NCBI RefSeq assembly: GCF_000002075.1
Contig: NW_004797484.1
Span: 394,101 to 458,100 of the forward strand
DNA from: Aplysia californica
Lineage: Eukaryota
Direction of reading: 5' to 3'
Length of the DNA: 64,000 nt
Of the stretch, positions 58,201 through 61,200 are shown piece by piece. Position 1 is the stretch's first letter; every line of letters starts with the position of its first letter. The notes under the pieces were generated by a model that saw only the letters and a program-made list of their open reading frames with translations, was not told the origin of the DNA and did no database searches. Position numbers and translations under genes: made by a program.

Positions 58201-61200
58201 ATATGATATTTTTACAACCATACCCTTCTTCCCTACAAGGAGCACTCTCGGTATCCAAGACACACATCTCAGAAAGACCTCCCATATCATTTCATACTCT
58301 TCCATTTCACGTACAATTTTGCCTTGGTTATCTAGCCCATTCATTTTCCTTTCAGAAAATACTATTTTCATCACTAGGTTGTGTGCGATTTTATAAAATT
58401 TTTAAAAAGAAAGGTACACCTTCAATTTTTGCGGAGTTATTTCCCATCTCTAAATGATGGGGGGGCCACAGCTGGCCAAGCCTGCTAAGTGCCAAAGGGT
58501 TAACTAGTTTTGTAAATGTTCACCCCCCCCCCCCCACCACATACCACCAGAGATAGCCCACACACTGCACACAACCAACACCCACTGGTTGGCTACCCAA
58601 TAATCGGTAAATTTTTACTTTCACTCTCGCACACAGATGCACTACTTCAGGGGTCCAACTGCAGTACTGTTTGTTGCAGATCACAAATAAAGCCACTAAA
58701 ACTGTCGCAAATCAATTATTTTCCAGAAAATTTCAAATCTAACTGTAAAATATCAAATCATGCCCCCCTGTAACCCCCAAGATTTTCTTTCTTTTACCTC
58801 AGGGGGGGCCCCCCCTGGAACCCCCGATTGGTCCAAAGCACGTCTTATCTCGATTAAGAACAATCAAATATTTAAAAAAACTATTAATTTGCGACGGAAA
58901 TGAAATTGATATTCGTGTTCAGCGCATCAATATTTAGTAATTTAGTAGAAAACGGACAACTGGTAGTTAAGTGTGAGACGCAAGGGAAAGTAAAAAAAAT
59001 ACCCAATATCTTTCTCCCACAAGAAAAACAGATTTAGATCTAGATCTAGATCTAGAGAACTTTTGACTCTGAATTCATGTGCATTACATCACCAACAAAA
59101 TCAAACAGATTGCACAGCAGAATCATGTTCCTTGACGGGCAGAGAAACCCTGTTGAACCGCCAGCCCTGGCCCGCTCTTTCACCAACTCTCCAAGGTGCA
59201 TAACGAGGTTTGACTGTATTGTGTAAGGGAGTGTATACAGACCCGGTAACCGGGAACAAAGTCACAAAGTATACAGACCCGGTAGGGGAACTCTTGTGAT
59301 TTCGTAAGGCGGCCACCTCTATTCTCACCCGGAGTGAGAATAGTGCAGGCGAGTCTTGTGGCTATTCTCACCCGGTGCGCGTTCACCCTAAACCACAGAA
59401 TTCTACACTGTGATAACAGAAAAATTGTAGAATTCTGTGCNNNNNNNNNNNNNNNNNNNNNNNNNNNNNNNNNNNNNNNNNNNNNNNNNNNNNNNNNNNN
59501 NNNNNNNNNNNNNNNNNNNNNNNNNNNNNNNNNNNNNNNNTTCTCGGACTAGGGCAAAAAATCTCGGAGGGCCCGTGTGCAAGTTGCGCACGTTAAAGAT
59601 CCCTTGGTGGTCTAAAATCGATAAGAGTAGGCTTCGGCTGCCACCCGGGCAAAATTCAAAATTTCCTACCAACTGAAAAAGTTTAATGTGTCCCGCGCGC
59701 TCATATGACCTTATGCAGTTCCAAGCACCGTAAAACACTTACAAAAAAACACAAAAAAACAAAACAAGCTTGTGATGATGCTAGTCTGCTGTGTTGGTAG
59801 TTTACACTTGTTGAAGAAATTAGTCTTCTCTTCCTCCTCCTCTACTTTTTATTCTTATTTTCTACTTTTCTTTCTTCTCTTCTTCTACTTTCTTCTTTCA
59901 ATTTAGACTTTTATTCGTACAAGTTTGCTGTAGTGGGCTATCTTGGTTGTGATCAAAGCACTCACTTGTCAACATTTTTTAGATAAACTTTGTCTGGCCA
60001 AAAAGACAGTAAGTTTTCAAAGGATTGTTACAGTGTTTTCTCTGTGAGTTGCTCTTTCTGTACGCAGGGATGTCAATTGTACTTTTGAATTCCGGATGGC
60101 TCCTTGTAGTGAATCGTATTTTAACATCTTTTTCACTGTTTTTTTCTCTTTATGACATCTTTGTTGTTTTGTTTGTTTCCCCAACCTCCAGTCTCAGGGT
60201 CCCCACATCTACCAGACTTGCCCATCGGCCAACTACTACGACTGTAAAGCCATGGCCATCGGAGCCAGGTCACAGTCGGCCAGAACATACCTGGAGAAGC
60301 ACCTCGACGTCTTTCTGGATTGTACGTCTTCGTTATGGCATTCATTCTCTACCCCCCCCCCCCACCTATTTCCCACTCTATCTCTCTCTCTCACACACAC
60401 ACACACACTATCGGGTCTGGGCACTGAAACTTTCCGACATCACGAAAGAGTTCCCCTACCGGGTCTGTATACTTCGTGACTTTGTTCCCGGTTACCGGGT
60501 CTGCATACACTTCGATTGTGTAAAATGGATGAAAACGAAAATGGAAATGAACAAGAAAAGGGCTAGACCTATACAATGTCAATAGTAGGCTACCACAGCA
60601 TGTGACAGGAGTGAATATACCCACTTTGGCTGTGCGAACACGAGACCTGATGATAGCTTGGCACACCCACCTGTGTGCAGATTTTGGGACCCAGGGGTTA
60701 ATAGCAAATAGGACGGCTTCAAGACAGGACTCTGGGATTTATTACAAACCCTGCAATAGCTAGATTCTAGAAACCTGCTAAGGCTAAAACCTGACCATCA
60801 TCAGTGTTGTGATCTGGCAGAGGGGAGCTTGGCTTTCTCCTCGCAGCAGACCATTTGTGAAAGCCCCCACTTGTTGCTAGTCTAGATGTAGGTTCTATTC
60901 TTAAAGTAAGCCATGTAAGCTTAAAACGTATCCCTTTCATTTAAAATATCTGAGGGATGTCCCAGACCAGAAATGCACAATCACTAAAATACGGTACCAA
61001 AATACAAACGTATACAAATTGGAAAACTAAGGCACTTTCGCTAAAACAGTTATGAAAAATGGCCAGTTTTGCTATTTATCCCAAAGCTCTGGGGGGAGAA
61101 TATGTTTTAAATGTTAAAACAATGAACCATCTTAAAACAAAACTACAATATTCACAAAAATAACAAACAAATAGGTTGATATCGCTTGGATTGTAACATG

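What the first reader, a model, noticed from the sequence alone, without database searches (positions are those of the whole stretch)
60192..60321. Intact orphan PSMA1 exon, antisense inside RPL36A intron 1
Seen: a 130-nt exon with perfect AG/GT ends, its own pyrimidine tract, no stops and a highly conserved proteasome alpha-1 peptide, but no neighbouring PSMA1 exons. Intronic flanks mean a DNA-level copy, not a retrocopy. It lies between inverted copies of one repeat (59231-59300 and 60440-60511). Inference: TE-mediated exon capture (Pack-type or Helitron-like), a relic of local rearrangement, interleaved genes, or a misassembly near the 100-N gap at 59441. The inverted flanks could also favour back-splicing if the + strand is transcribed.
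Basis: partly seen in the sequence, partly recalled or inferred. Interest (0 to 1): 0.7.

Follow-up and report, generated by a model that had tools for sequence, protein, structure and literature searches.

The report
False exon copy beside assembly gap
The lone proteasome-gene exon inside a ribosomal-protein intron is part of an 823-base near-identical copy of the intact gene 9 kb away, starts exactly at an assembly gap, and is most likely an assembly error inside a real small transposon rather than a captured exon.

Summary
The 130-nt PSMA1 exon is in the assembly as described, but it is no orphan: a PSMA1 gene with an open frame over eight located exons, this exon included, starts 1 kb past the window end. 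Window 59541-60363 is a 99.4% copy of that gene's intron-exon-intron stretch 8,942 nt downstream. It begins at the edge of the 100-N gap and ends in a C run. The flanking inverted repeats are the ends of a real Mutator-type MITE (59227-60514, perfect 9-bp target duplication), so it looks like a Pack-TIR. Against a real capture: in 1.09 Mb of this genome, 5 of 18 exact 100-N gaps abut such a local near-identical copy, versus 0 of 152 other N runs. Four runs from three samples each lay one contig on the block, all with the gene's T at 60125 (window: C). Contig depth matched single-copy neighbours in the three runs where it could be compared. The junction itself could not be tested. Verdict: false duplication, about 0.85; real capture private to the sequenced animal, about 0.1. 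None of the 8 earlier scan notes shown (12 fitted) reported this.

The parts
59218..59226 (+). Left 9-bp target-site duplication (ATTGTGTAA) of MITE family A
   Evidence: Exact repeat at 60515-60523; chance of 9 of 9 matches at fixed ends about 6e-6
59227..59307 (+). Left terminal inverted repeat of a Mutator-type MITE (family A)
   Evidence: 702 exact hits of a 32-nt TIR word in G000; aligns with the left ends of 15 paired copies
59311..59440 (+). First 130 nt of a second repeat (family B), apparently nested in A and cut off by the gap
   Evidence: 1,182 exact hits of a 22-nt word; 100% identical over 130 nt to the copy in L050
59441..59540 (.). Run of exactly 100 N, most likely an assembly gap
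   Evidence: the window cannot tell gap from mask, but other exact-100 runs in G000 show the same abutting-duplicate pattern
59541..60363 (+). 823-nt copy of PSMA1 intron-exon-intron (source G000:C214:462583-463405); likely false duplication
   Evidence: 99.4% identity, 5 differences; only one other full-length match in G000; one contig per run with the gene's allele
59541..59762 (+). 3' part of a SINE-like repeat from the PSMA1 intron (label from appearance, not from a call)
   Evidence: 4 of the 5 differences lie here, and all 4 match another copy of the repeat in an earlier PSMA1 intron
60192..60321 (+). The 130-nt PSMA1 exon copy, AG/GT intact
   Evidence: identical to G000:C214:463234-463363
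60352..60363 (+). C run at the right junction; microhomology between the PSMA1 intron C run and the MITE's CCCCACCTAT motif
   Evidence: junction; motif in 7 of 15 other copies, at most 1 mismatch
60364..60514 (+). Right part and right TIR of MITE A
   Evidence: contigs of two samples run from 28-30 nt inside this TIR into the unique flank, just short of the tool's 31-nt bridging rule
60515..60523 (+). Right 9-bp target-site duplication
57723..57834 (-). RPL36A exon 2 (host gene)
   Evidence: Sequence; RNA joint 57245/57722 with 309 reads
61225..61256 (-). Candidate RPL36A exon 1 (pyrimidine-rich start, ATG then GT)
   Evidence: thin RNA depth; joint to exon 2 not seen in the truncated list

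Best explanation
The exon copy is most likely an assembly error (a false duplication): 823 bases of the neighbouring intact PSMA1 gene stand a second time in the assembly, inside the unresolved interior of a real transposon in the RPL36A intron. Shown: the MITE ends, the 9-bp target duplication, the parent gene, the copy's edges at the gap and at a C run, and the same pattern at other 100-N gaps. Inferred: the true interior is the rest of nested repeat B plus the low-complexity middle of MITE A (roughly 0.7 kb). A contig-extension or gap-filling step probably crossed from the MITE's C-rich motif into the PSMA1 intron's C run, ran through the exon and stopped in the SINE-like repeat, leaving a token 100-N gap. 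The copy would then have no function, because it would not exist in the animal.
For: (1) The parent gene is intact and holds the exon: 8 located exons, 231 codons, no stop. (2) The copy starts at the first base after the 100-N run. (3) Control over 1,094,000 bases on three scaffolds: 5 of 18 exact 100-N runs abut a non-overlapping copy of at least 300 nt and 96% identity, versus 0 of 152 other N runs (Fisher p 8e-6). A second test on 150-nt gap flanks gave 5 of 18 versus 2 of 152; without this case 4 of 17 versus 2 of 152, p 0.001. Four of the five gaps carry copies of 787-868 nt. (4) 4 of 4 runs (3 samples) lay one contig on 59770-60415, and each reads T at 60125 like the gene, not C like the window. 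Two of these runs, X1 and X3 (sample S1), match the window at the other sites where X5 differs, so S1 is likely the assembled animal. (5) Contig depth over the block resembles neighbouring unique contigs: X1 10.1 vs 9.3-14.2 (6 contigs), X5 41.4 vs 38.9-45.6 (5 contigs), X12 3.8 vs 2.2-9.4 (7 contigs). Left out: X1 20.5 and X5 128.8 (repeat regions) and one X5 record with only 145 of 3,275 letters aligned. (6) Both loose ends of the X1 contig map to PSMA1 introns 2.3 and 2.6 kb from the gene copy, as jump-library junctions at the gene would (library type inferred; X3 of the same sample lacks these joins). (7) 3 of 15 other MITE A copies also have N inside. (8) Ko et al. 2022 (PMC9516828, passages) list gaps beside the pair and lowered read depth as marks of false duplication, and show three ALDH2 exons falsely inserted in ACAD10.
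Against: The anatomy also fits real single-copy Pack-TIRs: filler from within 15 kb and microhomology at a breakpoint (Tan et al. 2021, PMC8277862, sections 8 and 14). The copy differs from the gene at 5 of 823 sites, one (60125) in unique intron sequence; a pure re-use of reads should give none, so a second haplotype, an error or mixed repeat reads must be invoked. 13 of 18 exact 100-N runs have no abutting copy, and none of the 5 on C97 and C26 has one; all positives are on C214. Three of the other four cases are about 1-1.5 kb apart, unlike 8.9 kb here. Logan contigs collapse bubbles and the tool warns their depth is no copy number.
Confidence: 0.85

Rival explanations
1. A real, very young Pack-TIR (Pack-MULE-like): a break inside the MITE was repaired by gap filling from the PSMA1 gene 9 kb away, switching template at the shared C run. 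It would be present on one haplotype of the sequenced animal or rare in the species, and would be silent cargo, antisense in an intron.
For: Both TIRs and a perfect 9-bp target duplication flank the host fragment. About 320 nt of the usual MITE interior is missing. The donor is within 15 kb, as for 160 of 281 Pack-TIRs, and there is microhomology, as in 190 (67.6%) (PMC8277862 section 8). Five differences from the parent. The right junction is assembled without N.
Against: No contig with the window's C at 60125 in 4 of 4 runs. Depth looks single-copy, where even a heterozygous copy in S1 would predict about 1.5-fold (weak measure). Gap-abutting copies recur in this scaffold. Among 15 other paired copies, 14 had no low-copy interior run of 60 nt or more and one had 96 nt with no sign of an exon (judged only against the loci fetched).
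Confidence: 0.1
2. A real local duplication or conversion tract unrelated to MITE biology, such as a template switch primed in the SINE-like repeat, which happens to lie between the TIRs.
For: The copy starts inside a SINE-like repeat whose 4 differences match a sister copy in an earlier PSMA1 intron, which could reflect recombination between repeat copies.
Against: Same read evidence as above. The left edge coincides with the gap to the base, which a biological event has no reason to do.
Confidence: 0.04
3. Interleaved genes, or a displaced exon that PSMA1 uses by unusual or back-splicing.
For: The exon and both splice sites are intact, and inverted repeats flank it.
Against: PSMA1 has the identical exon in order and an open frame without this copy. 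The intact splice sites simply reflect a 99.4% copy.
Confidence: 0.01

Closest known systems
False exon duplications in draft assemblies (Ko et al. 2022, PMC9516828; 12 passages read), e.g. three ALDH2 exons inserted in ACAD10 of the older zebra finch assembly
   Same: Exon of one gene appears inside another gene, beside an assembly gap, as a near-identical copy on the same scaffold, without extra read depth.
   Different: They judged from mapped reads, read pairs and a new long-read assembly; here only collapsed contigs and a gap control were available. Heterotype versus homotype could not be told.
Single-copy Pack-TIRs of animals formed by gap filling (Tan et al. 2021, PMC8277862; abstract, sections 8 and 14 read; supplements not read)
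   Same: Host fragment of 100-5,000 bp between both TIRs of one element, donor within 15 kb, microhomology at a breakpoint, unique parental copy.
   Different: Here the element holds an assembly gap at one breakpoint and the second copy has no read support. The filler also starts inside a repeat, which their filter on TEs flanking the parental copy might exclude.
Non-autonomous Mutator-like (MULE) MITEs (9-bp TSD and long TIRs as hallmarks: recalled, not from a call)
   Same: About 90-nt TIRs, 9-bp target duplications in 12 of 15 other paired copies, 592-1,032 nt, no transposase seen, hundreds of copies.
   Different: No autonomous partner was sought, so the superfamily is assigned from TSD and TIR anatomy only.

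Membership tests
Pack-TIR / Pack-MULE | Both TIRs of one element flank the insert | tested here: met
   Asymmetric family ends at 59227 and 60514 in the canonical orientation
Pack-TIR / Pack-MULE | Target-site duplication | tested here: met
   Exact 9 bp at 59218-59226 and 60515-60523
Pack-TIR / Pack-MULE | Internal host fragment with a unique parental copy at 90% identity or more | tested here: met
   823 nt, 99.4%, one other full-length locus in G000
Pack-TIR / Pack-MULE | The fragment is physically present between the TIRs in the animal's DNA | tested here: inconclusive
   No support: one contig per run, gene allele, single-copy-like depth; but contigs collapse variants and the junction's repeat side was skipped by the tool
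Pack-TIR / Pack-MULE | Empty or filler-free element at the same site in relatives | not testable with these tools
   G000 has no relatives held
False duplication (Ko et al. criteria) | Gap beside or between the duplicated pair on one scaffold | tested here: met
   Copy starts at the edge of the 100-N run; pattern enriched at such gaps
False duplication (Ko et al. criteria) | Read depth too low for two copies | tested here: met
   Contig depth of the collapsed block like single-copy neighbours in X1, X5, X12; an indirect measure
False duplication (Ko et al. criteria) | Discordant or spanning read pairs | tested here: inconclusive
   No raw DNA reads listed; 2 of 2 chimeric loose ends of the X1 contig point to the gene copy
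False duplication (Ko et al. criteria) | Copy absent from a long-read assembly | not testable with these tools
   No long-read run or second assembly was offered
Helitron capture | No TIRs and no target duplication (recalled) | tested here: not met
   TIRs and a 9-bp duplication are present
Retrocopy | Introns lost, exons joined | tested here: not met
   651 nt of upstream and 42 nt of downstream intron are copied

The most novel reading that the evidence does not exclude
A Mutator-type MITE in a ribosomal-protein intron has just captured, by gap-filling repair from the gene next door, a complete proteasome exon with both splice sites. This would be a segregating Pack-MULE-like allele in an invertebrate, caught so early that other animals sampled carry the same MITE without the cargo.
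Probability: 0.1. Interest if true: 0.45.

Novelty: not a real feature. Interest (0 to 1): 0.1.

Why it matters
As an artefact it matters only as a warning. In this assembly, near-identical local copies of about 0.8 kb that touch an exact 100-N gap recur (5 of 18 such gaps sampled). They can mimic exon capture convincingly, TIRs, target duplication and microhomology included. Other 'orphan exon' or 'Pack-TE' calls in this genome should be checked for that signature first. If it were real, it would be a polymorphic Pack-TIR that allows the gap-filling model to be tested on a filled and an unfilled allele of one insertion.

Tried and rejected
Junction bridging: no contig crossed 60363/60364 in 4 of 4 runs, but the tool skipped 60370-60415 as repeat and filters records, so this blank is not counted as evidence. 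X5's contig has 18 further letters past 60361 that were not shown; inconclusive. Expression: no RNA holder was listed. The raw RNA run X21 had zero depth on bin 60005-60271 on both strands, but true PSMA1 reads would lay there too, and depth fell steeply from the RPL36A 3' end (1183, 400, 76), so the library does not reach this exon. Back-splicing and use of the copy are untested. My interim idea of a real second copy starting after 60046 (extra depth in X5 and X12) was dropped: X5 gave one contig on the short stretch; X12 was not re-laid. Rfam on 50000-64000 gave one weak chance-level hit (E 0.17). The ETS/YY1-like motif with ATG at 62079 is not a gene-specific PSMA1 start: it is part of repeat B; PSMA1's ATG exon was not located. 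A 2.4-kb TIR pair on C2 has two ends of the same type and no direct target duplication, so it is not one element. Paper searches: three; none listed a report of this locus, which does not show that none exists. My notebook's '13 of 16' TSD count included the window copy; the count for other copies is 12 of 15.

Full report
Observation. Window 60192-60321 (+) is a 130-nt exon with AG/GT ends and 43 open codons, whose best PDB matches are proteasome subunit alpha type-1 (E 1.8e-19). It lies antisense in what is most likely RPL36A intron 1, between exon 2 (57834-57723) and a candidate ATG-only exon 1 ending at 61225 (thin RNA depth only). The organism was not identified by my calls; an earlier scan note on this genome names a sea hare (untested).

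The exon is not an orphan. A search of the own genome found the peptide twice, here and 8,942 nt downstream. The DNA past the window holds eight ordered PSMA1 exons that give 231 codons without a stop and include this exon; the first of them lies 1 kb beyond the window. The copied unit is 59541-60363, 823 nt at 99.4% to G000:C214:462583-463405: 651 nt of upstream intron, the exon, and 42 nt of downstream intron. There are five differences. Four lie in a SINE-like repeat and match a sister copy in an earlier PSMA1 intron; one (60125, C for T) is in unique intron. The left edge is the first base after the 100-N run. The right edge is a run of C shared by the PSMA1 intron and a motif of the flanking repeat. 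No third full-length copy exists in G000.

The flanking inverted repeats are one transposon. A 32-nt word of the repeat has 702 exact matches in G000. The 30 loci fetched gave 15 distinct paired elements of 592-1,032 nt, 9 unpaired ends and 6 second ends of elements already counted; 12 of the 15 have a 9-bp target duplication with at most one mismatch, and 3 of the 15 contain N. The window copy, 59227-60514, has the family's asymmetric ends and an exact 9-bp duplication (chance about 6e-6), so both sides of the gap belong to one insertion. I assign it to Mutator-type MITEs from recalled hallmarks. After 81 nt of left end it passes into the start of a second repeat family (1,182 hits), which the gap cuts after 130 of about 480 nt (length read by eye from one copy). 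About 320 nt of the usual MITE interior is also missing. Roughly 0.7 kb of expected repeat sequence is therefore absent where the assembly has 100 N plus 823 nt of PSMA1 (inference).

Two readings fit this anatomy. Real single-copy Pack-TIRs in animals take nearby filler (160 of 281 within 15 kb) with microhomology (67.6%) by gap filling (PMC8277862, sections 8 and 14). False duplications sit beside gaps, lack read depth, and can put exons of one gene inside another (PMC9516828, passages). I tested them in two ways.

Assembly control. In 1,094,000 bases from C214, C97 and C26 there are 170 N runs, 18 of exactly 100. Five of the 18 abut a non-overlapping local copy of at least 300 nt and 96% identity; none of the other 152 does (p 8e-6), and 6 of all 8 such duplicates touch a 100-N run. 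A second test on gap flanks gave 5 of 18 versus 2 of 152, or 4 of 17 versus 2 of 152 without this case (p 0.001). Caveats: all positives are on C214 (0 of 5 exact-100 runs on the other two scaffolds), some other N runs may be masks rather than gaps, and three sister cases are only 1-1.5 kb apart.

Reads. Only assembled contigs were offered for DNA; I laid 5 of the 20 holders and 1 of 3 raw RNA runs. On 59770-60415, X1, X3 (sample S1), X5 (S2) and X9 (S6) each gave one contig, all with T at 60125. S1 matches the window at sites where X5 differs, so it is likely the assembled animal, and it lacks the window's C. Block depth resembled unique neighbours in X1 (10.1 vs 9.3-14.2), X5 (41.4 vs 38.9-45.6) and X12 (3.8 vs 2.2-9.4), repeat contigs left out; two copies should about double it and a heterozygous copy raise it by half, though the tool warns this is no copy number. 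Both loose ends of the X1 contig map into PSMA1 introns 2.3 and 2.6 kb from the gene copy, as circularisation junctions at the gene would (inferred). Against my reading: contigs collapse bubbles; extra depth without T appeared for X5 and X12 at 90% likeness and was resolved only for X5; and the decisive junction could not be read because the tool skips that repeat. Contigs of S1 and S2 do start 28-30 nt inside the right TIR and run into unique flank, which suggests the MITE itself is real and shared.

Mechanism. Most likely the assembler could not resolve two nested repeats. An extension step crossed from the MITE's C-rich motif into the PSMA1 intron's C run, copied leftwards through the exon and stalled in the SINE-like repeat, whose consensus mixed reads of neighbouring copies; a token gap remained. 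The steps of this account are inferred; the edges, the parent and the gap association are shown. Interleaved genes, retrocopy and Helitron capture are rejected. Back-splicing was not testable: the RNA library is 3'-biased. Other family copies show no sign of exon cargo: 14 of 15 have no low-copy interior and one has 96 nt.

Verdict. Probably not a real feature (0.85). A private or heterozygous Pack-TIR remains possible (0.1) and would be a new member of a known kind. Interest 0.1.

Noticed in passing
G000:C214:374775, 620633, 785545-786364, 817215-818237: Four more near-identical local copies (447-868 nt, about 99%) that touch exact 100-N gaps; probably the same artefact.
   Followed up: partly
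window 61225-61256 (-): The candidate RPL36A first exon has a second ATG 14 nt upstream of the main one (61241), which after splicing would give a six-codon out-of-frame reading that overlaps the start; the transcription start is unknown.
   Followed up: no
window 61791-62156 and 62157 onward: A family B copy is interrupted by a family A copy, the reverse nesting of 59227-59440. Family B carries ETS-like and YY1-like motifs (recalled) at about 62063-62085, between RPL36A and PSMA1, which face away from each other.
   Followed up: partly
L004 3699 and 7205: Two PSMA1 introns begin with GTATCCTT, the minor-spliceosome donor (recalled); a similar donor word lies at window 61350.
   Followed up: no
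window 61800-64000 and L004 1-1028: PSMA1's ATG-bearing first exon was not located; the only ATG followed by GT on + in the range scanned is a weak one at L004 389.
   Followed up: partly
L024 and L026 interiors; window about 58608-59003: A third inverted-repeat element is nested in two family A copies and also lies in this RPL36A intron (seen by eye).
   Followed up: no
G000:C2:2627515-2629921 (L010, L011): Two family A ends of the same type face each other 2.4 kb apart with mirror-image flanks, around 1,285 N and about 890 nt of low-copy sequence.
   Followed up: no
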